From assembly GCF_009914755.1 (NCBI RefSeq), contig NC_060934.1: a stretch of 64,000 nucleotides of DNA. One strand, 5' to 3'. The notes under the pieces were generated by a model. That model saw nothing but the letters and a program-made list of their open reading frames with translations. It had not been told where the DNA came from and made no database searches. Source of the DNA: the human T2T-CHM13v2.0 reference genome, Homo sapiens. Positions 1 through 42,060 of the stretch are shown piece by piece. Made by a program: the position numbers and the translations under genes. Within the stretch, counting starts at the first letter, position 1. Each line of letters begins with the position of its first letter.

Positions 1-1530
1 ATGTTTTGTCCAGGTACTATGCCAAGAACCCAATAGACCTACCTGCAAGAAACCATACAAAAAGCAAGATTCCAGGCTGGCATGACGATCAAATTATGTA
101 CTTCAATGCGTGTGAATGCATTTATAAGCACAGTCTCAATACATAAATAAGGAACAAAATATTTAAAATGTATAAACAGATCATTTCTCTTTGCTTTCTT
201 TAAAATACTATATCAGAATCACCTGAGGAACTTGATAACAATTTTTTTAAAAACTATTATAACTACGTATATTAAGCCTTGTTAAAACCACAAGTTTTAG
301 AGGTTTAAGCCTTACTAGGTCAGCTCTTCTGATTTTGAGAGTTTAAGTGAAAATTTAAATTATAACACAGTATGTGGAGTAAACCTGCTTCAAATATTAG
401 TTTCTACATTATTGTTTCTATAAAAATAGTAATCTTCTGTATTTTAATATCAACTCATCACATATTAAATATTTCAGTCAAATCAAAATTTCATTTGAAA
501 TCTTCAATCTAAAAAATACACAGTTAAGCGCTTAAAAAGTAATTTTAACCACTAGGAAATGTTAATGATTAACTCACATTTGTTTCTGTTTCACTCCATG
601 ACAAAGTCTATAGGACACCCTGCAGAGAGGAAAACTCACATTAATATACCCATAATTTTACTTTCAGAAGCTTCTGGTAATCAAAGACTTATTATGAGGT
701 GTCTTCATGTTACCACTGCGCAGTAGCAAACTTAAAATATTCTAAAGATTAATCTATTTTCTCATTTTTTTAATGCTTTTGTTAAAATCTCAACAAGTAC
801 TAACATGTTATCTAAATTTAAACCTTAAAACAATAACACGACCCAATATGTGAACTCTGCCTATTAATTCTAAAACTTTTAATAATAGTTTGCTTATGTT
901 TGAGACTTAAAACAATAACATACTGCACTACACCCATCTTAGATATTTTCTAGGATCAAAGTCTATCTGGAGCAGGGCAAGCTGTGGTTGAGGGTGGTTG
1001 GGTCAGCAGGTAAGAGCCTTATGACCAGCTCTAAACGCCTCCACGGTGAGGAGCACCTCGAGCTAACAGACCAAGCACCAAAGGGTGGAACAGCTCAAGG
1101 TTGCATTTAGGAGACTCCAGCCTCGGCCGCCCGTGACTCCTCGACGAGCCCCACCTCTCTCGGTTCCAGCATCCGGCCCGCCCCTTCCTCCCAGGCTACC
1201 ACAGTATCGCCCGCCGAGCTCCCGGGCTGCGGGAAATGACGGAAACAAAAACTTGGTACACAAAGAAGGGCTAGGTCAGAAGTGAGGTCCCACCCTGGCA
1301 AGAAGGGCGACTTTTCTAGAAAAACTTAGCGGCAAGTTAACGGGAAGCGCGGCGACACAGTTCCTACGATTGTGGGGGGCACTCTGCCGCCAGGCAGTCT
1401 CATCCTTTGTCCTTTGAGAGGCCTCCTTGAAGCCGAAGGCTCTTAAGTGTCCCTGGGCAACCCTTGACTCGATCTCCATTACGGGCCCTCACTGACAGCA
1501 GCCATGACAGTTGCTTCCGGATATATTGAA
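1..1530 (-). ncRNA. ENTPD1-AS1: 5' end of a spliced minus-strand lncRNA, tentatively ENTPD1-AS1
   Basis: CpG island plus a minus-strand exon at 578-619 and a further minus-strand donor (GCAG|GTAGGT) at 43/42. No long ORF. The name is recalled from the divergent ENTPD1-AS1/ZNF518A arrangement ~40 kb apart and is not verified. Confidence 0.5.
578..619 (-). other. Candidate 42-nt internal exon of the minus-strand transcript
   Basis: Read on -: acceptor TTTTCCTCTCTGCAG|GGTGTCC and donor AAAT|GTGAGT. Confidence 0.55.
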
Positions 1531-1690
1531 TCGCCGCGGCCAGAGTCTCCCGGAAGTGACGCAACGCGGAGGGATCCGCGTTCGGCAGTGGGAGACCGAA
1601 GCGAAGTGGTTCCCGGAAGCGGCTGCAGCTGGGCTGCTGGTGGCGGGGCGGGGGTAGAGTGGGGAGAGAGGTTGTGGGTCTTACAACCAA
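1030..1690 (-). promoter_or_regulatory. CpG-island promoter (left), probably driving a minus-strand lncRNA
   Basis: GC/CpG-rich stretch in AT-rich surroundings. ETS-half-CRE composite CCGGAAGTGACGC at 1550-1562, further CCGGAAG cores at ~1513-1520 (-) and ~1613-1620, GC box ~1643-1654. Confidence 0.85.
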
Positions 1691-1719
1691 CCAACCCCAA
1701 CACGTTTTACGTGTTAGGC

Positions 1720-1915
1720 AGGCATTGTGCTGAACACCTCATTGGCAAGCCATTTAATCCCTTCCTTACAATCCCAGCAGTCAGAAATGTATCACTTACA
1801 TTTTATATATGGGGAAACTAAGGTTAAGAGAGGGCAAGTAAATTTGTCCGAGATCGTATAGCTGGTACTTGGTGAACGTGGTCTAACCCAGACACCGCGT
1901 TCTCCCTGGTGACTC
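1720..1915. mobile_element. MIR SINE fragment
   Basis: MIR core-like GGGGAAACTAAGGTTAAGAGAGGGCAAGTAAATTTGTCCGAGATC. Confidence 0.6.
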
Positions 1916-4723
1916 CATTTTGTAAAACCAGAGCTGTTGGCGCATGGCATCCTCGTAAGCCCCTTTAAGTTAGGCACTCTGTTGCCCAGAGAGGGGCCAA
2001 CTTGTAGCCAGTATGCTCTTTATGGTGAACACAAGGCCCACGTGTGTGCCTGGGTCCCCTTGGCTGAACCTCGGATTTCAATTGGTTTCTGACACCTTGC
2101 CTTTGCAGCATTCTCCGTCTGCAGCGCTGGTTACCTGAGGAAACTGTCAATGATTGCTAGGCTCTGGGGAACATTTTAGCTCCGTTTAGGCCCTTTTAAA
2201 TCCAGGACTAAGACAGTTGGAGGCCTCTCACCATCACCAGATACTCTAGCTGGCCTTAACAGAGGGCCAAGGACCATAATCTTGGACTTTCCACCAGACC
2301 AAGTGTTTGTTTGGCTTCTGTTTCTTTAGAATATGACTGAAAACCAATCTGTAGTTTGTTTAGTCTTCTTTCTGCATTGACCAGTACTCACATAATAAAG
2401 TGGGACTAGCCACTAAGGCTATGTTTTTGTAAAAACAAATTATGCCTAGAAAAACACAAGAAATACATCAAAATTAACAGTGATAGTGTTTGAATAGAGA
2501 GTGATTTTATTTTTTTCTCTCTGCTTTCTCTTTTGCATATCTGCTATAAAACCCTTTTAAAATAGAAAAATAAGCAAACTGGCTATGGTAAAAACATTTT
2601 TAATTGCCTGCTGTTATAATGACGGCAAAGGCATGTTGTCACATTTTGATAAATGACCGTCCTTGATACAAATCACGTAGAGAAATCCTGTTTGACTAGA
2701 AAAGCATTGGATTTTTGTGAGTCAGTGTATTCTCAAAATTTTCGATATTTTGTTTTGGTTCTATAATCCTCACAGGAAAAGTAAAAAAGCAAATTGATGT
2801 TTTTCACACACTTTCGTATGAGAGTATGCTACCACCAAAAGTCTTCCCTAAAACAAAGTTGCAGGGGTCAAGTCATGTGGGGCGTTTGGATACTTGAAAT
2901 GGTGGAGAACAAATATAAAAAGCTATTTTTATTCTGGCTGCTTTGGGGTACAGTTTTAAGCAATTTATTTCAGACTGCCAAAGAAAGCTTCATTCTTTAT
3001 TCACATACTCTACTTCCCACTATTGCTTATTAGTGACTTCTAAAGCAGTGACAAAACAAGTAAAAGAAGATAGAAAGGAAAAATGAGAAGGGATCACGGG
3101 AAGAAGAAAATGTGGAGGAACAAAGACAGATGGTGATATTGGGGTTACTTTGGAACTCCAGGGTAGCATGTAACAGCCTTCTTATCCAAGTCCTGGCACA
3201 GGCCTGGTTGCCTACTAAAAGGTAAATTAGCATCTATGATGTTCCTGCTCACATACTCAGCACCCACAGTGATAAGTCTTACTAAAAATTCATCTTGATG
3301 CGCATTCAAATTAGACATATATTTTAACAAAAATGGAGGGGTTGAACAACAAGAAATGTAAAGTAAAATCCCATCATTTTTCCTGTTTTTTTATCTTACC
3401 ATGTCATTCATTCATCCTGTGGTTAGTAGTATAACTATAAACTGGAAGTTTTGCCTGCAGCATTATAAAGCAACAACTATGAAACGCCAAAGTGAGGTGC
3501 TGACAAGATGCATGTTTTCCAAAGAAATGTCTTTACATTAGTCTGGCTCTGATGAGAAGTTGTTATGATGGGATTAAATGTGCAACAATTTTATTAGAGG
3601 AAACACCTGTGAGAGAGAATGGGCGGGAGCCAAGCAAGACTGGGAGAGGCTGCAAGTCTGAAATTGAGTAAAGCAGAGAGAGAGGGAAGGGTGGTGGAAG
3701 TTTCCTGGACTGCCAAACAGTCTAAGCAAGATTTAGAAAGGCTATTGGAAATCCTCAAGCCAAAATCACCTGTCAGAGGAGTCCTTCTTTCAGGAGCCAG
3801 CCTGCCTTATTATCTGTGCTGCTCTCAGTCACCGGCTGGAGCAGCCCATGGGTGAAAATGTGGCCAGGGAATTCAGAGTGCAGCAAGCATCTAGAGCCCT
3901 TGATCAGTTTTGCTCCCTGTATTGGCAGCCACAGTCCAAGAACTGGTTTTGCCGCTATTGGAACCTTTCACCAGTTTCATGGGTTAAAAGAAGATGTTGA
4001 AAGAGATGAGTTTATGAGGAGAAGTTTTGGGGAGAGCCATTGTTATATGCTTCCCCAGTCACCTTCAAGTCTAGTGAAGGGGGCTTCAATAGCAATACTC
4101 AGAGAACTTGACATGCATTTCCTGGGTTTTGAGAGGTACAGTAGTATCGTGACTCACATCTGGGAAATCCCAGGGGTAGGAGAGATGGGCCAGTGAGAAT
4201 TTTGGCATAGGAGTGAAGGAAAGTTGCTATGTTGGGATCTGTAGTCACTGCCGTAGTTTGTCAAGGCAAATGATGCCTGAGTGTTTCTCGTGCAGCAGAT
4301 GTGGGCCACGTGAAAAAAAGAGAAAGTTGGCCTGAGACCTTTTTGACTCTTGTGTATGGAGAGAATCTGTATGGTATGGATTGTTAGAGAAGCCATAGCT
4401 GTAGATGGAGCAATAGCTGGAGGAACAGAATGTATTGCCTATCTAGAGTGACCAACTTGTCCAGTGCCCTTGGACTTTCCCTGCTTTAGTACCAAAAGTC
4501 CCAAGTCCCAGGAATCCATGTTTGATCATTCTGTGTGTCATAGGAGTTGCAGCATCCAACAAACCTAAAAATCACCCGTGAGAGTGAGCCAAGTTTAAGT
4601 TTCAAGCAGGTCTAGAGTGTAAAACCAGCTTATGACCATGCCGGGATTAAAGTAGATTTTAGCAGAGGACAATTTGAAAATGACGCTGAAACAAAAATTT
4701 CTACACACTCTTTTTTTGGAGTG

Positions 4724-5133
4724 TGTATTAGTCTGTTGACACAGCCAAAATACCATAGACTGAGTGGCTTACACACAGAGATTTATTTTCTCACTGTCCT
4801 GGAAGCTCAAAGTTCAAAACCAGGGTTTTGACCAATTTGCTTTCTGGTGAGGGGCATTCTTCCTGGGTTGCAGCTGGCTGCCTTCTCACAATATCCTCAT
4901 ATGGCCTTTCCTCGGTACATACTCGAGATGAAGAGGCGTGGAAGAGAAAGAGAGAGAACTTTCTGGTGTATCTTCTTATAAGACACTAATTCTGTCAGAT
5001 CAGGGACCCACCCTTATGACCTCATTTCATCTTAATTACTTCCTTAGAGGCCCCATCTCCAGATATAGCCACAGCGGGGGTTAGGGCTTTACCATATGAA
5101 TTTGACGGGCACACAAACGTTCAATCCATCACA
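4724..5133 (-). mobile_element. MaLR solo LTR (MLT1-type)
   Basis: TGTATTAGTC...ACA termini, MLT1-like body, perfect 5-bp TSD GAGTG at 4719-4723 and 5134-5138. Confidence 0.8.
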
Positions 5134-6329
5134 GAGTGTGACTCTGCAACACAGAGATACCTTTTTTGGGTAGGGGCGGTCATGAGAACATTAGGTCTGT
5201 GTTTATGTCTCACACTCTTAAGGAGAAGTTATGCTATGGTGACTTTGCAGCCCTGTATCTTTATGAACAAATGTAAATATGATGTCTATAGATCGTTTGT
5301 GACACTTTTAGAGCTCTTTAGACATTACTTTAATCTTGTCAAGGAAAGTTGGATACCCAGAGGACCCTGTTATTTTTGTGTTCTGCAGAGCAGAGGATGT
5401 CACACGCTAATGTTCACACTACTGAACTCATGAGGAAACCCACAACAGACTCTGTGTACATAGTGATCAGGACTTGGGCTAAGCCCTGGGGCTTGTACTT
5501 AGCTACAGGGACTTAGTAAACAGTGGAACTATTCTGATAAGGGATATGTTACTGCTTCTATTTATGAAATTTGATTTTTTTTAAAGTTAACACAGGATTG
5601 GCTAATCAGAGAATATATCCTCTTACATCTTTTTTACAAATATGAACTCAAGTAGTTGTAAGACTCCAGCTTAAAAGGCCAGTATATTAAGAATGAATTG
5701 CTGTTAAACAAAACAAAACAAAAAAAAGACAGACATAGATTTGAGCTTCCTTTAGCATCCACTTGATCCTTCCAGGAGGTATAGCTGTTTTTTTAATTCC
5801 TTAAGGGGTATAATAGTTGGAATTATGTTCAGCTATGAGGAAGTAATAGAAATTTTCAAAATAAGTTTATTTAAACATGACATAAATTAATTTTTTTTCT
5901 TTTAAGACATCTAGATGAAATCAATTTAGAGTTCGTACAGTTATTCATGGGGTGAGGATTCCAGGCTCCTCCTATCTTGTTGCTCCACTATCTGTGGTGT
6001 CCATTTTCCAAGGTAATTTCATGATCTAAGATGGCTGTTAGAGCTGTAGCCATTCCAGTGAACAGGAAAGACTAGGGGATTCAAAGAAAAGCACAATTGT
6101 TTCATTTCAGGATAGTTCCCAAATGTTACACACAATCCTCTGCAAGACATGTGGAAAAGGTGGTATTTTATTTTCTGGTAAGCCAGTGCCCAGCTAAAAA
6201 ATTAGTTTTTATTACTCTATAACAAGGGTCAGAAAATGATGGCCAATTGGTGAGTTGCCTGTTTTTATAAATAAAATGTTATTGGAACACAGCCATGCTC
6301 ATTTTACCTGTCGTCCATGTCTACATGTT

Positions 6330-6940
6330 CTTTTAAATGATTTTATTGACATAATTCACATTATACAATTTGCCCACTTAAAGTGTAAAATTCAGTGGCT
6401 ATTAGCATTCACAGAATTATGCATCTATCACCACAATCAAGTCTAAAACATTTCCATTGTCCTGAAAAACCCCACGACCTTTAGGTATCTCTCCAATCCC
6501 CCATATCTGCTACCCATAATCTTTCTGTCTGTATAGATTTGCCTACTTTGGACTTTTCATGTAAGTGGAATCATACAATAATTTGGGTCTTTTGGGTCTA
6601 GCTTCTTTCACTTAGCATAATGTTTTCAAGATTCATCCATACTGTAGCATGTATCAGTACTCCATTTCTTTCTGTGGCCAGATATTCCATTAATGGATAT
6701 ACCACCGGGTGTTTATTCATTCATCAGTTGATGGACATTTGGGTTGTTTCTTCCTTTTAGCTATTGTGAATAATGCTTCTATAAATATTCATGTACACAT
6801 TTTTTTGTGGACATATGTTTTCATTTCTCTTGGGTATATTCCTAGGAGTAAAATTACTGGGTCTTGTGGTAAAGGTATGTTTAACCGTTTCAGAAACTAC
6901 TAGACTATTTTCCAATGTGACTGCACCAATTTCCCACCTT
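6330..6940 (-). mobile_element. Old L1 (L1MB-like) 3' end fragment
   Basis: Antisense L1 3' motifs such as CATTCATCAGTTGATGGACATTTGGGTTGTTTC. Confidence 0.8.
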
Positions 6941-7118
6941 CAGAAACATGTTTGTATCTGAATGCATATCTCCTATATTTTAAATAAATAAATATATGCA
7001 GGGAAAAAATAATAGATCAGAAAGAGAGAGAATCCCATTGTTATTCTGGTTGTCCCTAAGATTTGCTCTATCCCTCTCCTATCTGAGGTTTGATTATTAT
7101 GTGAGCGAATAAGTCCTC

Positions 7119-7574
<456 letters not shown>

Positions 7575-9459
7575 TGAAAAATACAACTTTCTATCAACTG
7601 TGATAGAAATCAGTAGTGACAACCAATATCAGTTTCCTCCTGTTATTTTTGGGCACGCAGCTAGACTATGTTTCCCAGATCCCCTTGTACTTAGATAAGA
7701 TTATATGACTAGATGTCACCAGTGGAATGTGAGAAGTGATGGGTGTCATGATTGTAGTGGTTAAATATGGATATTGACTTATTTTTCTACTTTCCTTTTC
7801 TGAAGGCCAGGTGTGGAGAATTCAGAGGACTCTGCTTCTTGGGGAAGGTGGAGCTACTAGATATTAAAAACTTAGGTCCCTGAATGACTGCATGGAGTAG
7901 AACCCTTTCATTATGTCTGTTAACCCATATTGGACCGGGACATGAAAAAGCAATAATCCTTTATTCTGTTAAAATACGAAAGTAAAACAAAAACAAAAAT
8001 AGCAGGTAGCCTACTTTAATACATCTACAGCCTTAAAATACTTCCTTATGGATTTTGATGGTTCTGGCTAATTTGGGCAAAAAATATGGCATAAAATATC
8101 AATCATCTGAATAAATGTGATTAAGATTTAACCAAGGTCATCATGAGAAATACTATAGTAGTATAGCTATTGGTGGTACCTATTCAAAGGATCACATACT
8201 AGTTTCCATATCCAGTTTGTGGAAGTCTTCGAAGCAATGTTTAAAGATGAGTTACCTAGAGATTGTGTGAACATAAAAATGTGGATGATCTAGAGGACAG
8301 AAGCAATTACCCTGATGAAGATGTAAAAGTTGTCACTGTAAATATCTATCACTGAAATCTCACATCATTTGTATTATTCAAATGTGTGTCCAGTGAGGCA
8401 AAAGAACTCATGGTATTAATTTGAATGCCACATATTGGTTCTTTAGAAATCATTTCCCTCCTCCTTTAGAAATCACTTCCTCCTTCACCTAGGACAAACC
8501 ACAGATAACTGCACAGGCTCTGTAAATGGTTTTAAGAAGTCTTCAACGATGCCCCTAAGAACATATTTGGTTCCCTTCTGGTAGATTAAATGCTACCTAG
8601 CCTGAGGAAGACCCCCTGTGTACTAGTATTTTTCTCCTACCATGAGTGACATATTGTAAAAGCATTAGGCATCCAGATGTTCTACTTCTCATTGCTTTTC
8701 TAAATGTTTTATTGAGATATACCTTCTACTATAAGATGACTCATTGTTAGGCAGTATTTATCAAGCAGCTATGCCAGTTATCAACTGATTGCCTCTCAGC
8801 CCCAAATTTACCTTTTTGCCTGATCAGTAAACATGGACCTGGGTCCTTGAAATATTTTTCCTTAGCCAGTGGGCATGATGTTAATCTTCTTAAGAAGTGG
8901 GAGCTGGAGAGACATTGCAGGAGGAGGAAGTTTTCCTTCCTGGTCCTGGTGGCTTTTATTCTCTATTGCTTGGCCTCTATTCTCTATTGCTTTTATTTTC
9001 TATAGCTTGGCCTGTGTAGTTTTCTCCGGTATGAGGTACCTAAAGGAGGCAGATTTCTCTAGTGGCCACTGTGTCAATTTCTAGACTTGGGTGGCAGAGG
9101 CATAGCCAGGAGAATGGCATGAATTTGTGCCTTCCCAGGTCACTGCTCTCTTCGCCCATTCTTCAGACCCACAATGTGTACATGCCTGGAGCCCTGCAAG
9201 CTGGCTGTGAGGAGCCCTGCAAGCAACGCTACCCTGGCTCTAGTGAGCCAGCCACCCAAGCTTTGCCTGTGCAGCTGCCCAGAGCTGCCCTTGTCCAAGC
9301 CACACACAGAAGCACTAGTTTCCTGTAGCTCCCAGTTCCAGCAGCATCCACAGTGGTGCTCTATCTTGTTCTGTGCACTTGACTTCCTGCCTAACACCCA
9401 CCTACCAGTGTGAGCTTGCCTGTACCCTCCTGCTTACCCAACAACTAGGCATAAATACA

Positions 9460-9890
9460 TCTTTACAACTTTGCGTCTTCCAATTCATGAATATTGTATA
9501 TTTCTCCTTTTATTTCGTTGTTCTTTAGTGTCTTTTACTGAAGTATTATAGTTTTATCTACAAATATTTTACATACTGTTTAAACATCTATTCCTAGTAT
9601 TTCATATTTTAATGATATAATAAATGGCATCATCTTTAAGTTTTTAATTTTTAACTATTTGATTGGAGTGCAACACATTTTTATATGTTGATTTTGTATA
9701 TCCAGCAACTTTGCTAAACTTTCATATTACTTTTAATCATCTATATATAGGTTCTGTTTAATTTTCTATATCCCAAATTGTGTCATCTGTGAATTCTTCT
9801 TTTCTAATCTTTATGGTTTTATTTATTTTTCTTGCTTTATGTACCAGTGAAGACACAAAATATAATGTTGAATAGAAATGGTGTTAATGT
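9460..9890 (-). mobile_element. Old L1M ORF2 fragment
   Basis: Antisense L1 motifs (GTTGATTTTGTATATCCAGCAACTTTGCTAAAC). Confidence 0.7.
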
Positions 9891-9891
9891 C

Positions 9892-10100
9892 TGCCTGGCA
9901 TGGTGGCTCACGCCTATAATCCCAGCACTTTGGGAGGCCGAGGCGGGCGGATCCCGAGGTCAGGAGTTTGAGACCAGCCTGGCCAACATAGTGAAACCCC
10001 GTCTCTACTAAAAATACAAAAAAAAATTTAGCCAGGTGTGGTGGCACATGCCTGTAGTCCCAGCTACTCGGGAGGCTGAAGCAAGAGAATTGCTTGAATC
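9892..10100 (+). mobile_element. AluS, 3'-truncated
   Basis: Alu left arm and part of the right arm, ending abruptly at TTGCTTGAATC with no tail. Confidence 0.9.
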
Positions 10101-10414
10101 CTTCTCTTTTCTCTTTCTTTTCTTTTCTTTCTTTTTTTCAGATAGGGTCTTACTTTGTCACCCAGGCTGAAGTGCAGTGGTGCAATTGCTGCAGCCTCAA
10201 ACTCTCAGACTCAGATGATTCTCCCATCTCAGCTTCCTGAGTAGCTGGGACTACAGGTTGCATCACCACACTCAGCTAATTTTTTTGTATTTTTTGTAGA
10301 GATGGGGTTTTGCCATGTTGCCCAGGCTGGCCTCAAACTCCTGGACTCAAGCAATCTGCCCACCTCAGCCTCCCAAAGTGCTGGGGTTATAGGCTTAAGC
10401 CATGGTGCCCAGCC
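10101..10414 (-). mobile_element. AluJ
   Basis: Pyrimidine tail then antisense Alu, directly abutting the preceding + Alu. Confidence 0.9.
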
Positions 10415-11715: not shown

Positions 11716-11827
11716 CCGGGAGGCGAAGCTTGCAGTGAGCTGAGATCGCGCCACTGCACTCCAGCCTGGGCGACAGAGCGAGACTCCGTCTTAAAAAAAA
11801 ATAATAATAATAAAAAGAAAAAAAAAA
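11716..11827 (+). mobile_element. 5'-truncated AluY in the tail of the AluJ
   Basis: CCGGGAGGCGAAGCTTGCAGTGAGC...GACTCCGTC plus A-rich tail, CpGs retained. Confidence 0.85.
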
Positions 11828-31047: not shown

Positions 31048-31347
<300 letters not shown>

Positions 31348-32831
31348 GTGATTACCCAATATTTCTATCTTTCTTCTGAATACCACATGACTTTTATCCA
31401 CTGAGCATCAAGACCAACTCTAAACCTTGTAATTGTTGCATAGCATTTTAGCTTCAACTTTTCTCGAAGATTAGAAAATGTTTTCTTGAAGAATCCATTA
31501 ATTGTCTCACATATTTTGTAAGTTTCAGAACTCAACATTTCTGCTATATTTTATACTTTTCCTCTTGATTTACTTACCTTCTGGCTGAAGTTCATTATTT
31601 AATATTCCTTTGCAGAGAATATTTGGAGGTAAATTTACTTACTCTTTAAATGTGATGGCAAATATCTTTAAAATTGCCCTTATAACAATAGTTCAGCTAG
31701 CTTTGATATCCTATATACAGTCATCTTCTCTCACCACTTAAAAAAATTATGATGTTGTCTTATAATATTTATGAGGTATTGAAAAATTCTGTTTTTAGTC
31801 TAATTCTTTTGTATTTAATCTGTCTTTTCTTGCTGGTGACTTAAAAAAGAATTCTCTTTACTTTTTTTATTTTTGTAATTTTACTATGGTGTATCCAGGT
31901 ATGTTTTTATTTATCCTACCCAGTGCTTGTAGCACATTTTCAAATGGGGATTCTTTTCTTTTTATGTTTTTTGTTACAATTTATTCTTTTTTTAATTTTT
32001 AATTTTTGTGGGAACATAGTACATGTATATATTTTGATACAGGCATGCAATTCATAATTACATCATGGAAATTGGGGTGTCCATCTCCTCAAGCATTTTC
32101 CTTTGTGTTACAACCAATCCAATTATACTCTTTTAGTTATTTTAAAATGTACAGTTAAGTTATTATTGACTATAGTCCTCCTGTTGTGCTATCAAATACT
32201 AGGTCTTGTTCATTCTTTCTCACAATTTTTTTTGTACCCATTAACTATCCCCACCTCCCTGCCATCCCTGCCGCCCACCCCAGAGGAATCTTGTGTTTTC
32301 TCCAATTCAGAAACATGTTTAGCCTTTATCTGTTCCAATACTGCTTTTCTTCCATTAACACACTTGCATGCACTCCTATAACAGGTGTATGTTGAAAACA
32401 CTCAATCTATTCTCCATGTCTATTAAAAGCTCTTTCATGTGTTTCAATGTGTTTGTTTCTCCTTACTGCATTTCCTCAGGGCTATTTTCACATTGATTCT
32501 CTTTATTATAACCACTGTAGGCTTTATTCCATCTGTTAACTTATAATATTTCAATGGCTATATTTTTTTATTTCCAAGATTTCTAATTATAATTCTAATA
32601 CATTCTGTTAAAATATCACTCTACTTGTGCTTCATTTCTGCCTGCTTATTAATTCATTGCTTGCTGTTTTTAATAACACCATTTTTTCGTTTACCTTTTT
32701 GTAAGACAGTTTAGTTTCTTCTGGAGTGAACTTACATTCTGAAGTTTGATTTATTGGCTACTTTCATAGCATTAGATTACTTTATGGGGTTTGGAGTTAA
32801 ATTTGCAGAGTCAATTTGAGTAGGAAGTTTA

Positions 32832-33192
32832 TCCTTTCTTCCTTCCTTCCTTCCTTCCTGTCTCTCTCTCTCTTCCTCTCTTTCTCTTTCTTTCTTTCTT
32901 TTTTTTTTTTTGTGACAGAGTCTCACTCTGTTGCCCAGGTTGGAGTGCAGTGACGCCATCTCGGTTCACTGCAACCTCCGCCTCCAGGGTTCAAGCAATT
33001 CTCCGTCTCAGCCTCCTGAGTAGCTGGGATTACAGGCGCCCGCCACCACGCCCGGCTAATTTTTTTGTATTTTTAGTAGAGACGAGGTTTCACCATCTTG
33101 GCTAGGCTTGTCTTGAACTCCTGACCTTGTGATCCGCCTGCCTCGGCCTCCCAAAGTGCTGGGATTACAGGCGTGAGCCACCCCGCCCGGGC
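32832..33192 (-). mobile_element. AluS with (TTCC)n/(TC)n tail-derived microsatellite
   Basis: Antisense Alu preceded by pyrimidine simple repeats. Confidence 0.93.
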
Positions 33193-34761
33193 ATTCTTTC
33201 TTTCTCTCTCTCACTCTTGCTCTTGCTCTCTGCTCACTCTTCCTCATTTAATTATTTTTAAGTTGTCTTTCTTAGCCTACCCCAGTCCCTCAGGGTGAAA
33301 CAAGATTTTATATTACAGATGACAGGCCTCTGTTCTAGAGTAAATTGAGGCTAACACAGTTCCCTGAAGAGCCAGTGGATAATTTTGTTTTGTTCCTGGT
33401 ACTTCCTTTTTCTATTATTCTGAGATTTTCTTACACTTTCTCCTGACTTACACTTCCTATTATCTGATTTCTGAGTTTTACTCTTTCTTGATTTACTCCC
33501 TGAATTTTAGTGAAGCATTACCTTTTTGGGAAAAAGTGCAAGAAAGCTGTTTTAGAGCATTTCCCTTCCTAAAAATGTCTTGATTCTACTCTTATGTTTA
33601 ATTGTTTAATTTGCCTTAGAATTTAAAGGTATTACTCCATTGTTGTCTAGTTATTTGTGTAATTGTTGAGAAATCTGATTTTATTTTTATTTACAATCTT
33701 TTGCATGTGACCTCTCTTTTCTCTCTGTAAGATTTTAGGCTCTTTATATCCTGATGTTCTAAAATCTATAGTGATGTATCTTAGCGTTGTCATTTTGGTG
33801 ACATTCAGTGTGAAATTCAGTATGGAAAGTGATATCCTCCAGTTCTAGGGCATTTTATTGTATTTGTTTAATAATTTCTTCTCATTTCTCTTCATGGAAA
33901 AGAGGGGCTCCTATTACCTGGATGTTAGGTTTTACTTTTTTATGTTTTCTATTAGTTATAGTGAATAATGCTGCTATGAACACAGTATACAAATATCTCC
34001 TCAGGATTCTGTTGTTAATTCTTTTAGGTATATACTCAGAAGTGAAATTGCTAGATCATATGGTAATTCTATTTTTACTATTTGCATGAAATGTATTTTT
34101 CCATCTTTTCACATTCAACCTATTTGTGTCTTTGAATCTAAAGTGAGTCTCTTGTGGACAGCATTCAGTTGGATCATGTATTTTTATCTATTCTTCCAAT
34201 TTCTGTCTTTTAATTAGAGAGTTTAATTTATTTATATTTAAAGTAATTACTGATAAGGAGGGACTTGTTATGTCATTTTGCTTTGTTTTCTATATGACTC
34301 ATAACTTTCTTGTCTCTCATTTCCTGCCTTACAGTTTTCTTTTATCTTTAGTTGACTTTTTATAGTGAAATGTTTTAATTCCCTTCTCATTTCTTTTTGT
34401 GTATATTCTATAATTATTTTTGTGGTTACCATGGGGATTATATTTAACATCTTAAAGTTATAACACTCTAATGTGAATTTATACCAGATTAACTTCCAAT
34501 AGCATACAAAAAGTCTGCTCCTTTACAGCTCCATGTCCACCTCTTTTTATTATTGATGTCATAAAATTACATCTTTATATATTGTGCATCCGAAAAGATA
34601 AACTAGTCACTGGTTTTTAAAATTCAGTAGTCTCTTACATTATGTAGAAAATGAAATATGGATTTACAAACCAAAGTTATAAGAATACTAGCTTTTAGAC
34701 CAATAATTGTTTTTTAATTTATTAGTCTCTTAAATCACATAGAAAACAAAAAGTGGAGTTA

Positions 34762-35382
<621 letters not shown>

Positions 35383-38300
35383 AAGTTATTGTTACCATAA
35401 AACTAGCTTTAATAATTGCCCATATATTTATCTTCATTAAGAGCTTTATGTTTTCATATAACTTTGAGTTACTGTCTAGTGTCCTTTTATGTCAAACTGC
35501 AGGAACTCTCTTTAGCATTTCTTGCAGAGCAATTTTTGTTTTGTTTATTTCTTCCCTGTGATTGTGTCATACTTTCCTATATCTTTGTATGCCTTGTGAT
35601 TTCTTTGTTGAAAGTTGGCCACTGGAATCTAATAATGTGGCAGCTGCTAGTCAAAGTCCTCCACATTCCCACAGGGTTTGCTGTTTTTTGTTGTTTGAGT
35701 TTTGGTTGTTGTAGGCTGTACTCATGCCAAGCCAAGGATCAACCTAAGGTGTAAACCTAGGGTCTCCTCAGGTGTTTTCTGAGCCTGTGTCTTTTCCTGG
35801 GCATGTGTGGTGACTTTCTTATTTCCCCTGGATATGCAGTTGCCTTTGAATGTCCTAGTCTTTAATGTTTGGCTTCCAAAAGGGCAAAACGGAAAATGGA
35901 GAGGAAAAAGGCGCTGGCCCTTTAAGTCTCCTGGCAGTTGCTTCAGCCTGAGGGGGAGGGACTTGCCTGCCACCTTGGAGGAGGGGTTGGGTGGTGGTGG
36001 TGCAACAATGGCTGTCCACCTCTGTGCGGACACTCCTAGGATCAGAAGTAGCAATCAGCAGTCAGAACACAGATCCCCAGTATTTGGAGGATGAGTACTT
36101 GCTCCTTATTGCCACCCAAGCCCAGCAAACTGCAAGCAAGGGACTCCAGGAAGAAGTGCACAGCTGCCTGGCTGGAGGCTACAGGGTGGGGGATGGTAGC
36201 TATTGCGAAGCTAAGAGCTGAAATTGACAGAAACTGCAATTTACCTTGCAAGCCTTCTATAGATGTCAGAGTTCCAAAATAGTTACATCAGACATATCCT
36301 GCCAGTACCACTTGTTGATAGATTCCTGCTGCTTCCTATGTTGCCATCTTCCCAGAATCCTCTCCTAAAAACTTTTCTTCTTAATTCTTTTTGGTTTGGT
36401 TTTGTTTTTTGGAGGGGAAGAAATTTTATTTATCTGTACCCCATGAGTTTTATTAGTGATTTTTATTATTATTTTTTAAATTAATCTTTCTGTGTCAATA
36501 ATTGTATAGGCCCAGTCATCTTAACTCCCTTTCCTGTTTATCTAGCAACTGTTTGAATTATTGTGTCAGACTTTAAGCTAGGAGCTGGATGTTGATAGTT
36601 TCTATTTTTCAGTTACTCAGCTGCCTGAGGAGGTTGGGGAGATGGGAAAAAAAAGGGAGTGAGGTAATTTCTGTCTACGTAGGGGCATTTTTCATTTAAA
36701 TTTGTTGAATCTCTGCATTTTGTCCAGAGGGTCAGTTCCTTTTGCCATATCTCTGCTTTCTTGTCTTTAAAGAACATCGGTCATCTTGGTGACAGGATCA
36801 GTTAAAGTGAAGACCTATAACTTGTGGACATACATGAAATGTGGTCTTCTATTTCATCTGTAAATATTTCAGCATGTATCTTTAAATGATAAACTTTGAA
36901 GACATAACAGCAAATATATTACATCTAAAAATTAACAAAACAACTTAATATAATCAAATATCCTGTTTTCAAATTTCCAGTTGTCTCATACATGTCATAA
37001 ATGTGTTTTTGTCTATTTGCTTGAATCAGAATCCAAGTAACTTCCACACATGATGATTGATTGATACACAATTTAAGTCTCTTTTAATCTATAGGTTTTC
37101 TCTTTCATCTCTTTTTTCTGTCCAATTTTTTGTTTGGTTGAAAAAACAGGTCATTTGTCTTATACAGTTTCACAAAGTTGATTGTGCTCATTGTGTAGTT
37201 TAGTATGTTCCACTGACCTCTGTAATTCCTGTGAATTGGTAATACTATAGGCACTCTTGTTTTCCCATAATGACTGGTTTTCTCCCATTTTTTTGTGATA
37301 TTGACAGATGTCAAACATTTTTATATGCCAACCAAAAGTTATTCATCCTTCCTCCATGCTAGTCAGAACTACTATTTTGCTCAGTTGTCAATTTGCCGAG
37401 TCCCAGGGTATAAATCATGATTGGTTTGAGTCAATTACAACAATGCTGTTTTTCTTTACCATCAATTTGTTCTAGAGATGAGTATGTGATTCCATGTTGG
37501 CAAATGAAATATAAGAAGTTCATTAGAAAAGGTTGTTCTCTCCAGTAAAATTTGAAAGAGTGTGAGAAGATCTTTTTTTTTTTTTTTTTTGCTTTTTCTC
37601 ACTTCTTCCTGCTTGATATACTGCTGAGGGAGGATACAATGCCTGGTGCTGTGATAGCTACATGATCTCAATCTGATTCTTGTTCTGTATAAGTGATCTT
37701 TTTATCTCTGGAAACTTTTAGAAGTTCCGCTTTGTCTTTGATATTCTTCAATTTCATTATAATGTATCAGGGTTGAGTTTTTTTTTTTTTTTCATTATAT
37801 CTGTTGCTGGACACCCCATGAACCATCAAACTTTTATTAAAAGTTTGCCTTAAGATGTAATGAGCCATAATAATCTACTTTTACAAGTTCTCAAGTATAA
37901 TTTATTGGTATTAACATAGTCCATATGGCATTGATCTCACAGAAATCAAATTTATCTTTTAAACTACTTTAGACAAAAAAAACAAATTAATCTGCACTAA
38001 CAAAAAAGAAAAGAAAAACCCTATACATTTTTATTCTTTTAAAACTTTAAATAATGAAATGTTCTATGCATATACAAGAGAAATAAAGGAGTATATATAA
38101 CATATATGTGTACCAGGTTTGTTCTTAAATGTAATTAACAAGTATTCCACTTAATTCTTTTTTCTTTTTCTAAGGACTTGAATTAACTGTGCTATCTATT
38201 ACATTACGCTCAGGATGCAAACAGTCTTAGGAAGAATTTGATGTGATTAGGGGTGGGGAGAGGTACCCTAAAATACTTAGGTAAGACCAATATAGTTTAT

Positions 38301-39659
38301 ACAGTTCATTTTAATGTTCTTTCTGTTTGAATATAGTATCCATGAAAAGAACTAAGAAAGAGGGACTATATCTTTCATTAAAACTTAATAAAAATGTCTT
38401 GGTCATCTAAGAAGTGTGAATTGAGAGGGAACTGTCAGGGATGCCAACCTAAAGAAAAATCTTTCTCATCCTGTGTTACAGTGTCTGAAATCTCATCTTT
38501 AGAATTGCTTTGTTGGATCATAAAATCTTTCAAATATTCAAGAAAATTCCATTGAACTGATGGCCCTCCATGAGGAATCATGTCTTATTTATTGCTAGCA
38601 GTTTCTGGCACATAATAGGTATTCAAGAAAATGTCTGCTGAATAAATATTAAACAACAAAATTGAAAAGAACATTGAGAAGAATAATACTTAAAGATCAA
38701 CTAACACTTGTATGATAGATTGCCACAAGTAATTAAGCCGTATCTTTGACCAGGATGTGTAACCACTTTATGCTGTATCACCCAGGCTCTTCATATCTCT
38801 TTTTTTTTTTTTTTTCCCAATTCTGATTGCACTTGATTATATTGTTGGGGGTAGAGAACCTGGGCTTGAGTTCATAGATCAGCAAAAAGAAGAGAGACAT
38901 TTTTAGAGACTCTTACTATCCAAATTAATATCATTTAATCTTTTATTATCATAGTGCTTATGATGTACCAACTTATCTGTGTCTTAAAAGTATGTTTACA
39001 TTGTTGTAAGAACAAATATAAGTTTGATTTAAGTATGATTTACAGGTGAGAATCCTTAGAGAGAAATGAATTTCCATTTATATATTATTTTTAGGAGAAA
39101 ATTTCACTGTCTTAAAGTGAGCTGCTTTATGACACAGAGTCCATGAATTGTACGCATATTTTTTTTAATCCTTCCACCTCAGCCTCCTGAATCGCTGGGA
39201 TTATAGGCACAAGCCACTGCACCTGGCATCAGTTGTATATTGAAAAGCAGAAAGAGGTTTGCAATCAAGATGGAAACTTCATTACTATCACCACCATCAT
39301 CACTTTTATCATTTCCATTACACTCTTGGTGCAATGGCGTTGAGTACTCTCTTCAGTCTATCAAACAATATATAACGTGTTAGTTATATGTTGCACAGCT
39401 CTGAGAAGCTCAGAGGTTAAATGCTGTCAGCTAGTAAGCAGTAGTAAGGTCTTCAGAGGGATCAACTATTTAAAGCATTAATCTAGATGTCCTATCCCCA
39501 TAACTATCCTTCTCAAGTAAAAAAGTATTCCAGAATCCTTTCCTAAGCTATGATTTAGCCTTCTCCCCTTTGTATCTTTTTCTCCCTTTTAATCATCTTC
39601 CCTTCCTTCTTGATTCACTCTCCTCTCTCCTCTCCTCCCTCACCACCCCACTTCCACTT

Positions 39660-39752
39660 TTTTTTTTCTTGCTAACCAATATGTTCAAAACCTGAAAGGA
39701 GATCAAGAGAAACCTTTCAGGTTTTGAACATAGAGGTTAGCAAGAAAAAAAA
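39660..39752. repeat. Near-perfect inverted repeat (38 of 40 bp stem, 13-nt loop)
   Basis: TTTTTTTTCTTGCTAACC-AA-TATGTTCAAAACCTGAAAGG pairs with CCTTTCAGGTTTTGAACATA-GA-GGTTAGCAAGAAAAAAAA. Confidence 0.97.
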
Positions 39753-39794
39753 GGTGATATGAATGGTGGAAGAGGTGATATGAATGGTGGAAGA
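39753..39794. repeat. 21-bp tandem direct repeat x2
   Basis: GGTGATATGAATGGTGGAAGA occurs twice, exactly. Confidence 0.97.
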
Positions 39795-40879
39795 GAAAGG
39801 GGAAGAGATAAGGTAAGTCTGACTAATATTTTAATTTATTTTAACTTTCTCCAATTCTTCTATAACATAAATGCAGGTTTGCAAGGTTTTGTAGGTGAAT
39901 GTATATGTAGAAGTAAAAATAAAGTTATAATGTGAATACTGTGGGGGGGGATGCAATATCTTAATCGAAAAAACAAAAACTACATCAAAACACAGAACAA
40001 AAAACTCTGTCCATTTTTCCAAACTAACATCGTTTTTTGTTATTAAAAGAAAAATCTCGTTCTCTCTCTTTCTGCTGTGATGTGTGTGCATGTCTGGCTT
40101 GCACAGAAATGAGGACCTGAAGAGAGATGGGTGATGTACGATGCGGAATAAAATCCACTTTGTAAACATGTTCTTCATTCCATAATGGCATCCCCTTTGG
40201 TATTTACAGAAGATTTCTCCTTGTGTGTTTTACACAAGCATAAATATGACTAATGTGAATTTCCGCTCATTCGCCTTTTCTAGGTGGAATTGTGTAGCCC
40301 AGTAAACACAATAATAAAGAAGGCTTCCTAAAGACAAAGTGAGGATTTCTCAGTGTGCTTTTTATTAAAGGATGGAGAAAATCTTGCATTTGGCTACAGG
40401 CTGACATTTTCAAAAGCCTGCCCTAAGACAATGAAAAATATGTATCATACACATATTTTAAAAAATTTTTAAAAATTATAAATGTCATACATGCTACTTA
40501 AGAAAACACGGAACATTAAAAAATGAAAAATCTGATCATAGTTTCACTTTCAATTTATTGGTATATCCTTCTGCGCCAAGGTTTTTTGTTGTTGCTTAAA
40601 CGTTTGCCGCCACTTATTCCCTCCCCACATTTTAAAAGGAAGATAATTTATGTAGAATTATGTAGAAAGTGAGGTATCAATTAGTAGGTTGGATTTATAA
40701 AGAACAGAAGAGGAGCCACACTGGCCTTTGGGGTAAAGCCAACCATATTAACTGTCCAGCCCTGTTGTCAGGTAGAGGAAGTATTCGTTTGAGGGAGATG
40801 TGAGCCTCCCTCATTGTGAAGATAGTTTTTGATCAATTATTCAATATATACAGGTTTGGAGTTCAGTATGTCTTCTAGA

Positions 40880-42060
40880 ACTACTGGCGGCAGCTTCTTT
40901 CGTTGACGTGGGCTACAATGGTTGCTAAAACCTGCGTGCCAGAAGCCAGAGGTGGGGAGGCGCCATTTGCTAAACCGGAACTGGTTAAAATCTCAGGGTG
41001 GAGACCATTCCCAGTCAGCAAGGGCTTGGGAAGTGCATACAGTTCCTGCTCCTGGTGTCTACTCTGAAGAGCACAGAGTAGACGTTTGTCTGCCATTTCA
41101 CCGGCAGTAAGATCAGCAGCTGCTGGTGAGCAAAGAGGTAGTAGTGGGTCACTGGACTGGTGGGCGCCGGGGCCGCGCGCTAGATGGAGAGGTCAGCGGC
41201 GAACCCAGCTCCATGGCCTAGTCTCGTCAGACCGAGCGCGGACCCTGCCGGCCTCCGTTCTCTTCCGCTTGTCTCAGGTAAAGCGCAGATCCCTCCGCCG
41301 CAGCGTGCGCTCCCGGTAGCGCTGCGATCAGCTTTTCGGCAATACCCGGATGGAAGTGTAATGGCCGCCATCAGGGACTCGCAGGCAATGGGTACTACGA
41401 CAGGTATTCCCCGTCAGCGGGACTGCCCAGACCTTTTAGGATGTCAGAACTTCTAGAGGGCCACCCAGCAGGCAAATGGCGAGTTTGTGGACCGTCAGGG
41501 TCCCCCAAACAGGTCCAGGGATCCGCCTCTTGTGAGAGGAAGCGCGAGTTAAATAGTCCCGGCCATTCAGCGCTTCCGCTTAACTTGCCGCAAAGTTTTT
41601 CTGGAGAAGTCGGGGTTTTTTTGCCGAGCGCTTTTGCCGACTGCTAGAGCTTACCCTTACTTTCTTAACCTGGGGTTGTTTTACTTCCGGGCTTTTTGAA
41701 CTCTACACTCTCCTACATTCTAGGAGCTGGGTGGGAGTAGGAGACGGTGTGCCTCCGCGCTCCCCGCGGGGCAGCCGAACCCCGGAGGAAGGGGCGGATC
41801 GGGCGCGGTGTTTGGGGCGAAGCTGGGCGCGCGGCGCTCGAAGCACTCACTCGGCGGGTTTCGTGGTTGGTGGAGACAGCAAGGGCGCCCCGCAGACCGC
41901 ACCCCTCGAGCTATAGGTTCGCAGGCCCGACTCGACGGCGTCCCTATTGCTGGCCCAGCGTATGGTCATTGGGGGCCATTTCTTGCAGAGATGCCCTGCT
42001 CCCTGACGCGCTCGCTCTTCTCCAGAGTTGGCCAAAGGTGCTCTTCCCCGCAGACCCTAA
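40880..42060 (+). promoter_or_regulatory. CpG-island promoter (right)
   Basis: CpG-rich. YY1-like GCGCCATTTG ~40960-40969, ETS cores CCGGAAC ~40975 and ACTTCCGG 41683-41690, GC box ~41790, splice donor CAG|GTAAAG after 41277. Confidence 0.9.

What the first reader, a model, noticed from the sequence alone, without database searches (positions are those of the whole stretch)
1178..41797. The two CpG-island promoters 40 kb apart are ancient inverted duplicates of each other
Seen: the reverse complement of the left island aligns colinearly with the right island in at least five blocks. 1566-1580 matches 41284-41298 (14/15). 1476-1528 matches 41340-41391 (~70%). 1308-1350 matches 41570-41612 (38/43). 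~1210-1222 matches ~41723-41735. 1178-1191 matches 41784-41797 (14/14). Both islands appear to transcribe outward in the same homologous direction (left -, right +). The spacers have diverged, so the duplication is old, and I recognise no repeat family here. Inference: the lncRNA promoter (tentatively ENTPD1-AS1) is a retained copy of the ZNF518A promoter/first exon. It could be a lncRNA born by inverted promoter duplication, or the remnant of a lost ZNF518A paralog, with probable shared regulation. I am not aware of this being described, but cannot check.
Basis: partly seen in the sequence, partly recalled or inferred. Interest (0 to 1): 0.8.

Follow-up and report, generated by a model that had tools for sequence, protein, structure and literature searches.

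The report
Old inverted copy of ZNF518A's start
The promoter and first exon of the long non-coding RNA ENTPD1-AS1 are an ancient, flipped, partial copy of the front end of the neighbouring ZNF518A gene, a tidy but unsurprising example of a non-coding gene born from a duplicated gene start.

Summary
All five reader blocks check out. RC(1100-1700) against 41150-41900 scores 47, against a dinucleotide-shuffle maximum of 19 (n=300, z about 24) and 14-18.5 for the only other CpG island within 167 kb.

Homology is not confined to the islands. It is a patchy colinear inverted duplication of about 5 kb: left -2888..2719 (running past the window's left edge) against right 40307..45162, with 1507 of 2203 aligned columns identical (68.4%). 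It covers the ZNF518A promoter, first exons, intron 1, a decayed exon 2 with both splice sites mutated, and intron 2.

The left TSS (1547) aligns to 41319, 27 nt from a ZNF518A TSS. The 37.6-kb spacer is not palindromic. No ZNF518A coding remnant lies to the left.

The arms are single-copy. A 33-mer with up to 3 mismatches occurs only at these two places in 3.1 Gb. A 234-bp repeat found only in the right arm, 14.9% diverged from its consensus, shows the duplication is older than that insertion.

Verdict: an old partial gene duplication that supplied a lncRNA promoter. It is a new member of a known kind and of moderate interest. Shared regulation, exact age and direction of copying are untested.

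The parts
1..2719 (-). Left arm of the inverted duplication, the part inside the window. It is homologous, read on the minus strand, to ZNF518A upstream sequence, promoter, first exons and intron 1. The arm CONTINUES BEYOND THE WINDOW'S LEFT EDGE to about window coordinate -2888 (fetched as L002). That part is homologous to ZNF518A exon 2, intron 2 and the exon 3 region, with later Alu-like inserts at -1448..-1142 and -679..-536.
   Evidence: Inside the window: 2719..2244 to 40307..40777 (293/429), 1633..1238 to 41232..41687 (269/388) and 914..465 to 42226..42731 (290/423). Z-scores are 5.7-24 over shuffles. Outside the window: -1844..-2045 to 43821..44038 (145/197), -2016..-2423 to 44317..44706 (252/373) and -2458..-2888 to 44756..45162 (258/393). 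Multi-copy mask.
40307..45162 (+). Right arm: ZNF518A upstream sequence, CpG-island promoter, first exons, intron 1, exon 2, intron 2, exon 3 and the start of intron 3.
   Evidence: 9 of 35 200-bp tiles scanned over 39400-46399 reach z>=4. All 9 lie within 40200-45199; 0 of 10 tiles outside do.
1001..1800 (-). Left CpG island, the ENTPD1-AS1 promoter. The annotated TSS 1547 aligns to right 41319.
   Evidence: CpG scan. CpG o/e is 0.72-0.80 at 1201-1800, against 0.0-0.5 in the flanks. TSS mapping, with annotation from the hub.
40751..42250 (+). Right CpG island, the ZNF518A promoter. Annotated TSSs are at 41292/41293, 41341, 41565 and 41582.
   Evidence: CpG scan. CpG o/e is 0.84-0.90 at 41200-42099. 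Annotation from the hub.
1294..1547 (-). ENTPD1-AS1 exon 1. It is homologous to ZNF518A alternative exon 41292-41391, the sequence between the exons, and the first ~45 nt of main exon 1 (41582 onward). Its splice donor (GT at 1293-1292) has no counterpart in the right arm.
   Evidence: Alignment with exon marks; sequence read.
578..619 (-). ENTPD1-AS1 exon 2. It lies in sequence homologous to ZNF518A intron 1 (about 42580-42625), where no ZNF518A exon is annotated.
   Evidence: Alignment with exon marks.
43871..43955 (+). ZNF518A exon 2. Its dead copy in the left arm lies outside the window at about -1963..-1896 (minus strand), where the acceptor AG reads AA and the donor GT reads TT.
   Evidence: Alignment -1824..-2087 to 43813..44086, 182/240 identical. 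This is the strongest tile of the scan (z 18.5, 115/145).
44041..44268 (.). An interspersed repeat of about 234 bp inserted in the right arm only, after the duplication. A second partial copy lies near 45300-45400.
   Evidence: The first look gave 2870 candidates genome-wide, of which 40 were scored at 73-81% identity. 0 of 20 fetched copies hit the left arm and 20 of 20 hit the right arm. Excising the repeat raises the junction alignment score from 59.5 to 72.5. The window copy differs at 33/221 positions from the majority consensus.
2720..40306 (.). Spacer of 37.6 kb between the arms, with no inverted homology of its own. It contains the U6 pseudogene at 24052-24156.
   Evidence: Tile scan on the anti-diagonal gives mean 15.06 (n=50), against 14.36-15.90 in five control bands. 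Rfam U6 at 87.4 bits.

Best explanation
An old inverted partial duplication copied about 5 kb of the 5' end of ZNF518A. The copied part held the upstream sequence, CpG-island promoter, non-coding first exons, intron 1, exon 2, intron 2 and the exon 3 region. The copy landed 37.6 kb upstream in the opposite orientation. It carried no coding sequence. Its CpG island stayed CpG-rich, which implies it stayed unmethylated and active. It now fires from a start site homologous to ZNF518A's upstream start sites, but towards the left. There the transcript picks up a new splice donor and unrelated downstream exons and becomes ENTPD1-AS1. The copied exon 2 lost both splice sites and decayed with the introns.

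Shown here: the homology, its extent, orientation and single-copy status, the dead exon 2, the absence of a coding copy, and the alignment of annotated TSSs. Inferred: that ZNF518A is the parent, that promoter activity was continuous, and the age (older than the right-arm repeat insertion, roughly the time of the placental radiation or earlier).
For: Homology beyond chance: score 47 against a shuffle maximum of 19 (n=300), orientation controls of 11-12.5, and 14-18.5 for another real CpG island.

Colinear extension: six local segments cover left -2888..2719 and right 40307..45162, with 1507/2203 identical. 9 of 25 tiles inside the arms reach z>=4, against 0 of 10 outside.

Gene structure is copied: the exon 2 homolog is 182/240 identical, with the acceptor reading AA and the donor reading TT in the left arm.

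TSS 1547 aligns to 41319, between ZNF518A TSSs at 41292/41293 and 41341 (hub annotation).

Single copy: the 33-mer 41580-41612 with <=3 mismatches has exactly 2 places in 3.1 Gb, the two arms, and 0 for the reversed control pattern. Genome DNA searches with 1-2800, 40100-42800, 42750-43790, 43780-44029 and 44300-45290 return self plus at most three 30-46-nt matches.

No coding copy: tblastn of the 1484-codon ZNF518A frame against -49999..41000 gives 3 HSPs, all E 2.6-4.4, while the positive control is 100% over 1484 aa. The whole-genome protein search finds only the gene itself on chr10.

Both islands are CpG-rich at homologous positions, with CpG-poor flanks.

Age order: the 234-bp repeat is in the right arm only. 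It has a JC distance of 0.167 to its consensus, against 0.205 per lineage for the arms.
Against: The parent-to-copy direction rests on parsimony only, namely that the right arm's exons still splice to the coding exon. No outgroup genome was available.

Only 9 of 25 tiles inside the arms are individually significant. The stretch 42800-43799 against about 465..-1824 is not alignable, so colinearity there is interpolated.

The genome DNA search did not recover the left copy when queried with the right arm. Its silence therefore cannot exclude other copies at <=70% identity.

Identity is uniform (66-74%) across promoter, exon and intron homologs, and the best promoter block is not exceptional (p 0.51). 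There is thus no sequence evidence that shared regulatory sites are under selection.

Promoter activity is taken from the hub's annotation, not measured here.
Confidence: 0.75

Rival explanations
1. The left arm is what remains of a full-length inverted ZNF518A paralog. Its coding exon and most introns were later deleted or decayed, leaving only the 5' end as a lncRNA promoter.
For: The copy includes non-coding exons 1-2 and introns in gene order, as a whole-gene copy would. The outer boundary near 45162-45343 abuts later repeat insertions, so the true end may be obscured.
Against: No homology was detected from -20000..-2400 against 45400-63800. No coding remnant lies in -49999..41000 (3 HSPs, E>=2.6) or elsewhere on chr10 (which used a stricter first look). 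A 4.4-kb coding exon decayed to about 68% nucleotide identity should still be visible to tblastn (inference). A full copy from TSS to CDS end is about 31 kb in the right gene. By the hub's coordinates it would run into CCNJ (-45635..-27821).
Confidence: 0.1
2. The direction is the reverse. The left locus is the older transcription unit, and ZNF518A acquired its present promoter and 5' UTR exons from a copy of it.
For: Nothing in one genome polarises the event. Both arms carry active annotated promoters (hub annotation).
Against: In the left arm the exon 2 homolog has both splice sites mutated and the exon 3 homolog is only 37/61 identical. This looks like decay of once-used exons. In the right arm those exons are used and join the coding exon. 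The left island is smaller and has lower CpG o/e (0.72-0.80 against 0.84-0.90).
Confidence: 0.1
3. Both arms are independent insertions of an old low-copy transposable element or LTR that carries a promoter, not a local duplication.
For: The genome DNA search is too insensitive to find copies at about 68% identity, since it missed the left arm itself. No Dfam or RepeatMasker library was available.
Against: The 33-mer with <=3 mismatches has only 2 places in 3.1 Gb. An abundant family would have been seen, as the 234-bp repeat was at 73-81% identity. Colinear homology runs over about 5 kb and contains annotated exons and introns of a host gene. The two copies lie 37.6 kb apart in a 3.1-Gb genome.
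Confidence: 0.03
4. The similarity is chance or compositional: shared CpG-island composition and common promoter motifs.
For: Both regions are GC- and CpG-rich. Only 10 CpGs are positionally shared, out of 27 (left) and 34 (right).
Against: Z is about 24 over dinucleotide shuffles and about 19 over local-composition shuffles. Orientation controls score 11-12.5. Another real CpG island scores 14-18.5. The strongest homology of all lies in AT-rich, CpG-poor sequence around exon 2 (z 18.5).
Confidence: 0.01

Closest known systems
Partial gene duplications (promoter plus first exons) that give rise to non-coding RNAs or truncated genes, as described for recent human segmental duplications (bioRxiv 10.64898/2025.12.03.692127; passages seen)
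   Same: A promoter is copied with only the first exons of a protein-coding gene. It stays active at the new place and drives a non-coding transcript that continues into unrelated sequence.
   Different: Those cases are recent, high-identity duplications studied by CRISPRi. This one is about 68% identical and far below the identity at which segmental duplications are usually catalogued (threshold recalled, not checked). It is inverted and only 37.6 kb from its parent. No functional data were examined here.
Inverted duplications at inversion breakpoints made by staggered breaks (Ranz et al. 2007, PLoS Biol 5:e152, PMC1885836; abstract read)
   Same: Two inverted copies of non-repetitive, partly genic sequence flank a segment with no homology of its own. 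This is the footprint that model predicts: 17 of 29 Drosophila inversions had such duplications.
   Different: That work is on Drosophila. Whether the 37.6-kb spacer is inverted relative to an ancestral order could not be tested here. A simple inverted duplicative insertion gives the same present-day picture.
Large genomic palindromes / fold-back inverted duplications
   Same: Two arms in inverted orientation on one chromosome.
   Different: In a fold-back palindrome, homology runs to or near the centre. Here the 37.6-kb spacer scores no better than control bands.
lncRNAs derived from decayed protein-coding genes
   Same: Former exons of a protein-coding gene persist as decayed or re-used pieces of a non-coding gene.
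   Different: Here the parent gene survives next door. Only its non-coding 5' end was copied, and no coding exon contributes to the lncRNA.

Membership tests
Ancient two-copy (segmental) inverted duplication | Colinear kb-scale homology between two places, beyond chance and composition | tested here: met
   z 5.7-24. 1507/2203 identical over six colinear segments.
Ancient two-copy (segmental) inverted duplication | Opposite orientation of the copies | tested here: met
   Only the reverse complement aligns (47). Forward, reversed and complement controls score 11-12.5.
Ancient two-copy (segmental) inverted duplication | Not a dispersed multi-copy repeat | tested here: met
   2 of 2 genome matches are the two arms; self plus only 30-46-nt matches. 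Caveat: that search also missed the diverged partner arm.
Catalogued human segmental duplication (>=1 kb, >=90% identity; definition recalled) | At least 90% identity | tested here: not met
   68.4% over 2203 aligned columns.
Partial gene duplication giving a lncRNA | The copy holds the promoter and 5' exons in gene order | tested here: met
   Promoter and exon 1; exon 2 homolog; weak exon 3 region, 37/61.
Partial gene duplication giving a lncRNA | The copy lacks the coding sequence | tested here: met
   no ZNF518A-like coding match on chr10 other than the gene itself. 3 HSPs with E>=2.6 in 91 kb.
Partial gene duplication giving a lncRNA | The copy's promoter is active and starts transcription at the homologous site | tested here: inconclusive
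   Annotated TSS 1547 aligns to 41319, 27 nt from TSS 41292. Activity itself rests on the hub's RefSeq annotation. No CAGE or expression data were seen.
Partial gene duplication giving a lncRNA | The protein-coding gene is the parent | not testable with these tools
   Needs outgroup genomes; none are held for this window (one search says it has no relatives here).
Inversion-linked inverted duplication (staggered breaks) | Inverted copies of non-repetitive sequence flank a segment | tested here: met
Inversion-linked inverted duplication (staggered breaks) | The flanked segment is inverted relative to the ancestral order | not testable with these tools
   No other vertebrate genome available.
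Interspersed repeat / promoter-bearing transposable element | Many dispersed copies in the genome | tested here: not met
   By contrast the 234-bp repeat gave 2870 candidates.
Interspersed repeat / promoter-bearing transposable element | Match to a curated repeat library (Dfam/RepBase), terminal repeats, target-site duplications | not tested
   No repeat library is among the tools. Rfam finds only U6 in the window.
Fold-back palindrome | Arm homology reaching the centre | tested here: not met
   spacer tiles have mean 15.06, against control bands of 14.36-15.90.

The most novel reading that the evidence does not exclude
The two arms are the scar of an ancient inversion of the 37.6-kb segment upstream of ZNF518A, made by staggered breaks that duplicated the gene's 5' end. 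In one step this event created the promoter of a 337-kb antisense transcript that runs back through CCNJ, CC2D2B and ENTPD1/CD39. The two promoters still respond to the same factors, so ZNF518A and the CD39 antisense RNA are co-regulated by descent.
Probability: 0.15. Interest if true: 0.55.

Novelty: new member of a known kind. Interest (0 to 1): 0.4.

Why it matters
It gives a concrete origin for the promoter of ENTPD1-AS1. One paper reports splice variants of this lncRNA as restraining CD39 expression in T cells (PMC7676266; passages seen; those variants are described as lying after the 3' end of CD39).

It shows that a duplicated CpG-island promoter can stay CpG-rich, with an annotated start site, at the homologous position while the exons copied with it decay to about 68% identity.

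It also makes a simple hypothesis testable: that ZNF518A and ENTPD1-AS1 share regulators because their promoters share ancestry.

Duplications this diverged are not in the usual segmental-duplication catalogues (recalled). Similar promoter pairs may therefore be under-counted. The mechanism itself is already known, so the general lesson is modest.

Tried and rejected

2. HSP chaining without repeat masking was derailed by Alu pieces. The observed chain scored 430, but controls scored 219-272. I dropped it for banded tile scans.

3. A global alignment with very cheap gap extension gave 75.7% identity over 3499 columns. I rejected it as inflated by over-gapping and used local segments instead.

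4. A cheap-gap 'empty site' alignment (second part) was uninterpretable. It was replaced by the copy-versus-arm BLAST and the excision test.

5. Whole-genome DNA searches as a copy-number test found only self and never recovered the partner arm. They exclude an abundant family, not rare diverged copies. The 33-mer pattern search did recover the partner and nothing else.

6. Extra conservation of the 38/43 core-promoter block: not supported. Windows of 38/43 also occur in intron-homologous segments, and the permutation p is 0.51.

7. Palindrome through the spacer: not supported. Borderline tiles at 5501, 14501 and 20201 are matched by equal numbers in control bands.

8. Homology further out, -20000..-2400 against 44600-63800: nothing colinear above controls beyond about 45343.

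9. Coding paralog: none.

10. Known RNA family in the arms: none. Only U6 at 24052-24156.

11. Literature. 0 papers hold both ENTPD1-AS1 and ZNF518A. Of 60 papers holding ENTPD1-AS1, the 15 listed concern expression or disease, by title. The 6 papers with ZNF518A + promoter + duplication are unrelated by title. 0 papers match lncRNA + 'duplicated promoter' + protein-coding gene + origin. Supplements were not consulted.

Those parts are now described inside in-window parts.
Full report
**Setting.** The window is human T2T chr10:96968001-97032000 (hub note; confirmed). The finding claims that the CpG island at about 1.2-1.6 kb (ENTPD1-AS1, minus strand) and the one at about 41.2-41.8 kb (ZNF518A, plus strand) are old inverted duplicates.

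**1. The observation.** I read both regions and counted the five blocks:

| Left | Right | Identical |
|---|---|---|
| 1566-1580 | 41284-41298 | 14/15 |
| 1476-1528 | 41340-41391 | 37 over lengths 53/52 |
| 1308-1350 | 41570-41612 | 38/43 |
| 1210-1222 | 41723-41735 | 11/13 |
| 1178-1191 | 41784-41797 | 14/14 |

They are pieces of one colinear local alignment, left 1633..1238 against right 41232..41687, with 269 of 388 ungapped columns identical.

The score of RC(1100-1700) against 41150-41900 is 47. The nulls are far lower:
- 300 dinucleotide-preserving shuffles: mean 12.8, sd 1.4, max 19.
- 300 shuffles confined to 60-bp blocks: mean 13.5, max 18.5.
- The left island forward, reversed-only or complement-only: 12.5, 11 and 12.
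- The only other CpG island in the 167 kb I held (-45799..-43850, by the hub's coordinates the CCNJ promoter): 14.0-18.5 in four of four comparisons.

That last control is a single real island, so the empirical null is thin. The shuffles and orientation controls are decisive on their own.

**2. Extent.** The homology does not stop at the islands.
- Inward: 2719..2244 aligns to 40307..40777 (score 32.5; null mean 19.2, max 27, n=100).
- Outward: 914..465 aligns to 42226..42731 (39.5; null mean 18.6, max 26).

A tile scan of the rest of the window found nothing further inward of about 2.9 kb / 40.1 kb except Alu-type repeats that also match off the anti-diagonal.

Because the outward homology ran towards coordinate 1, I fetched 20 kb to the left. 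Coordinates below 1 are window coordinates left of the window. Unique inverted matches continue there:
- -1844..-1993 to 43821..43985
- -2016..-2393 to 44317..44676
- -2458..-2756 to 44756..45034

A banded scan of 35 tiles of 200 bp over right 39400-46399, each against 50 shuffles, gives z>=4 for 9 tiles. All 9 lie within 40200-45199. None of the 10 tiles outside reaches it. Two more inside reach 3.8-3.9. In the nine tiles, 662 of 922 columns are identical.

Six local segments together give 1507 of 2203 identical (68.4%), with a Jukes-Cantor distance of 0.41 between arms. The stretch 42800-43799 is not significantly alignable. Its left counterpart is about 1.2 kb longer and holds Alu-like inserts at -1448..-1142 and -679..-536.

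Beyond right 45343 / left -3083, nothing colinear rises above controls out to 63800 / -20000.

The 37.6-kb spacer shows no inverted homology of its own. Fifty masked tiles on the anti-diagonal have mean 15.06, against 14.36-15.90 in five shifted control bands and 14.61 for the non-complemented control. The structure is therefore two arms of about 5 kb (left about 5.6 kb, right about 4.9 kb) around a non-palindromic spacer.

**3. What the arms contain.** The right arm is the 5' end of ZNF518A. Using the hub's exon table:
- The left TSS (1547) aligns to right 41319. This lies between the ZNF518A alternative start sites 41292/41293 and 41341.
- ENTPD1-AS1 exon 1 (1547..1294) is homologous to ZNF518A exon 41292-41391, the following 190 nt, and the first ~45 nt of the main first exon (41582 onward).
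- Its donor (GT at 1293-1292) has no counterpart on the right.
- The donor of the right exon (GT at 41392) reads AG on the left.
- ENTPD1-AS1 exon 2 (619..578) lies in sequence homologous to ZNF518A intron 1.

The best-preserved stretch of all surrounds ZNF518A exon 2 (43871-43955). Left -1824..-2087 aligns to 43813..44086 with 182 of 240 identical. In the left arm the acceptor AG reads AA and the donor GT reads TT. It is a dead exon, at about -1963..-1896.

The exon 3 region aligns only weakly (37 of 61).

Both arms have a CpG island at the homologous place. The left has o/e 0.72-0.80 over 1201-1800. The right has 0.84-0.90 over 41200-42099. Flanks in both are CpG-poor (0.0-0.5). Ten CpGs are positionally shared, out of 27 (left) and 34 (right) in the core alignment.

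**4. Not a repeat family.**
- The 33-mer 41580-41612, allowing three mismatches, occurs exactly twice in the 3.1-Gb assembly. One match is itself; the other is the left arm on the opposite strand with three mismatches. The reversed control pattern matches nowhere.
- Genome DNA searches with 1238-1633, 1-2800, 40100-42800, 42750-43790, 43780-44029 and 44300-45290 return the query itself plus at most three matches of 30-46 nt.
- These searches did not recover the partner arm, so they cannot exclude rare copies at about 68% identity. They do find old abundant repeats.
- Right 44041-44268 (and a partial copy near 45300-45400) gave 2870 first-look candidates, of which 40 were scored at 73-81% identity.
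- Rfam finds only the U6 pseudogene in the window.

**5. Relative age.** That 234-bp repeat is absent from the left arm.
- 0 of 20 fetched copies hit the left arm at E<=1e-3, and 20 of 20 hit the right arm.
- Removing 44041-44268 joins the flanks into one alignment (-1844..-2393 to 43821..44676, 362/522) and raises the score from 59.5 to 72.5.
- The window copy differs at 33 of 221 positions (14.9%, JC 0.167) from the majority of the 20 other copies.
- The arms differ by JC 0.41, which is 0.205 per lineage. That value is biased low, because only alignable parts count.

The order (duplication first, insertion later) is consistent. Converting to years needs substitution rates that I only recall. 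My estimate is around or before the placental radiation, very roughly 80-150 Myr, and this is an inference. No repeat shared by both arms was found that would cap the age.

**6. No coding copy.** The ZNF518A coding frame lies outside the window at 67627-72078.
- A whole-genome protein search finds it only once on chr10. The next hits are on chr4 (51% over residues 1325-1483; by recall ZNF518B) and generic zinc-finger genes. That search ran with a stricter first look.
- Local tblastn against -49999..41000 gives 3 HSPs, all with E 2.6-4.4. The positive control is perfect.
- By the hub's coordinates CCNJ occupies -45635..-27821, where a full-length inverted copy would have to lie.

**7. Selection and mechanism.** Identity is much the same in promoter (0.693), upstream (0.683), intron 1 (0.686), exon 2 region (0.736) and intron 2 (0.656-0.676). 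Windows of 38/43 occur three times, two of them in intron-homologous sequence. Column permutation gives a maximum >=38 in 51% of 5000 trials. So I claim no extra constraint on shared promoter motifs.

The argument for continued function of the left promoter is different. A duplicated CpG island that became methylated in the germ line would lose CpGs by deamination (established knowledge). The left island kept o/e 0.72-0.80 while its flanks fell to 0.0-0.5. RefSeq also annotates a curated transcript starting inside it, and functional elements lie on both homologous cores: 1267-1636 on the left, 40995-41634 and 40538-41442 on the right (hub note).

Most likely sequence of events:
1. About 5 kb of the ZNF518A 5' end is copied in inverted orientation 37.6 kb upstream.
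2. The copied promoter stays active and fires leftward.
3. Its transcript acquires a new donor and downstream exons.
4. The copied exons 2 and 3 decay.

How the copy was made is open. The present layout is what a staggered-break inversion of the upstream segment would leave (Ranz et al. 2007; abstract read). An inverted duplicative insertion fits equally well.

**8. Comparison with the known.** Partial duplications of a promoter plus first exons that create non-coding RNAs have been described for recent human segmental duplications (bioRxiv 10.64898/2025.12.03.692127; passages seen). This locus is an old, diverged, inverted and local example.

I found no paper naming both genes. The 15 listed of 60 ENTPD1-AS1 papers deal with expression and disease, by title. 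One reports the antisense RNA as curbing CD39 expression (PMC7676266; passages seen). I did not look at supplements, and browser self-alignment tracks could not be consulted.

**9. Verdict.** 'Shared regulation', the age in species terms, and the direction of copying remain untested. This is a new member of a known kind and of moderate interest.

Noticed in passing
window 44041-44268 and about 45300-45400: An abundant interspersed repeat of about 234 bp (2870 first-look candidates genome-wide, best copies 73-81% identical) with an internal inverted repeat. The window copy is 14.9% from the majority consensus. I could not name the family without a repeat library. A second partial copy sits at the outer edge of the detectable arm homology.
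   Followed up: partly
window 24052-24156 (+): A full-length U6 snRNA match (Rfam RF00026, 87.4 bits, model 1-105) in the middle of the spacer. It corresponds to the annotated pseudogene RNU6-271P.
   Followed up: no
outside the window: 67627-72078 (+), L006:3627-8078: The whole ZNF518A coding frame (1484 codons between stops) is a single uninterrupted stretch 22 kb beyond the end of the duplicated arm. Its only clear paralog in the assembly is on chr4 (51% identity over the last ~160 residues, 29% over residues 115-473).
   Followed up: partly
window 5680-5729 vs 37571-37623, and 21340-21577 vs 22383-22621: Two borderline inverted matches in the spacer (scores 24 and 26, against off-diagonal maxima of 20.5 and 21). 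A banded test with control bands shows such scores are equally common off the anti-diagonal, so they are probably chance.
   Followed up: yes
L002, window coordinates -1448..-1142 and -679..-536: Alu-like multi-copy inserts present in the left arm only. They account for part of the ~1.2 kb by which the left arm's intron-1 homolog exceeds the right.
   Followed up: partly
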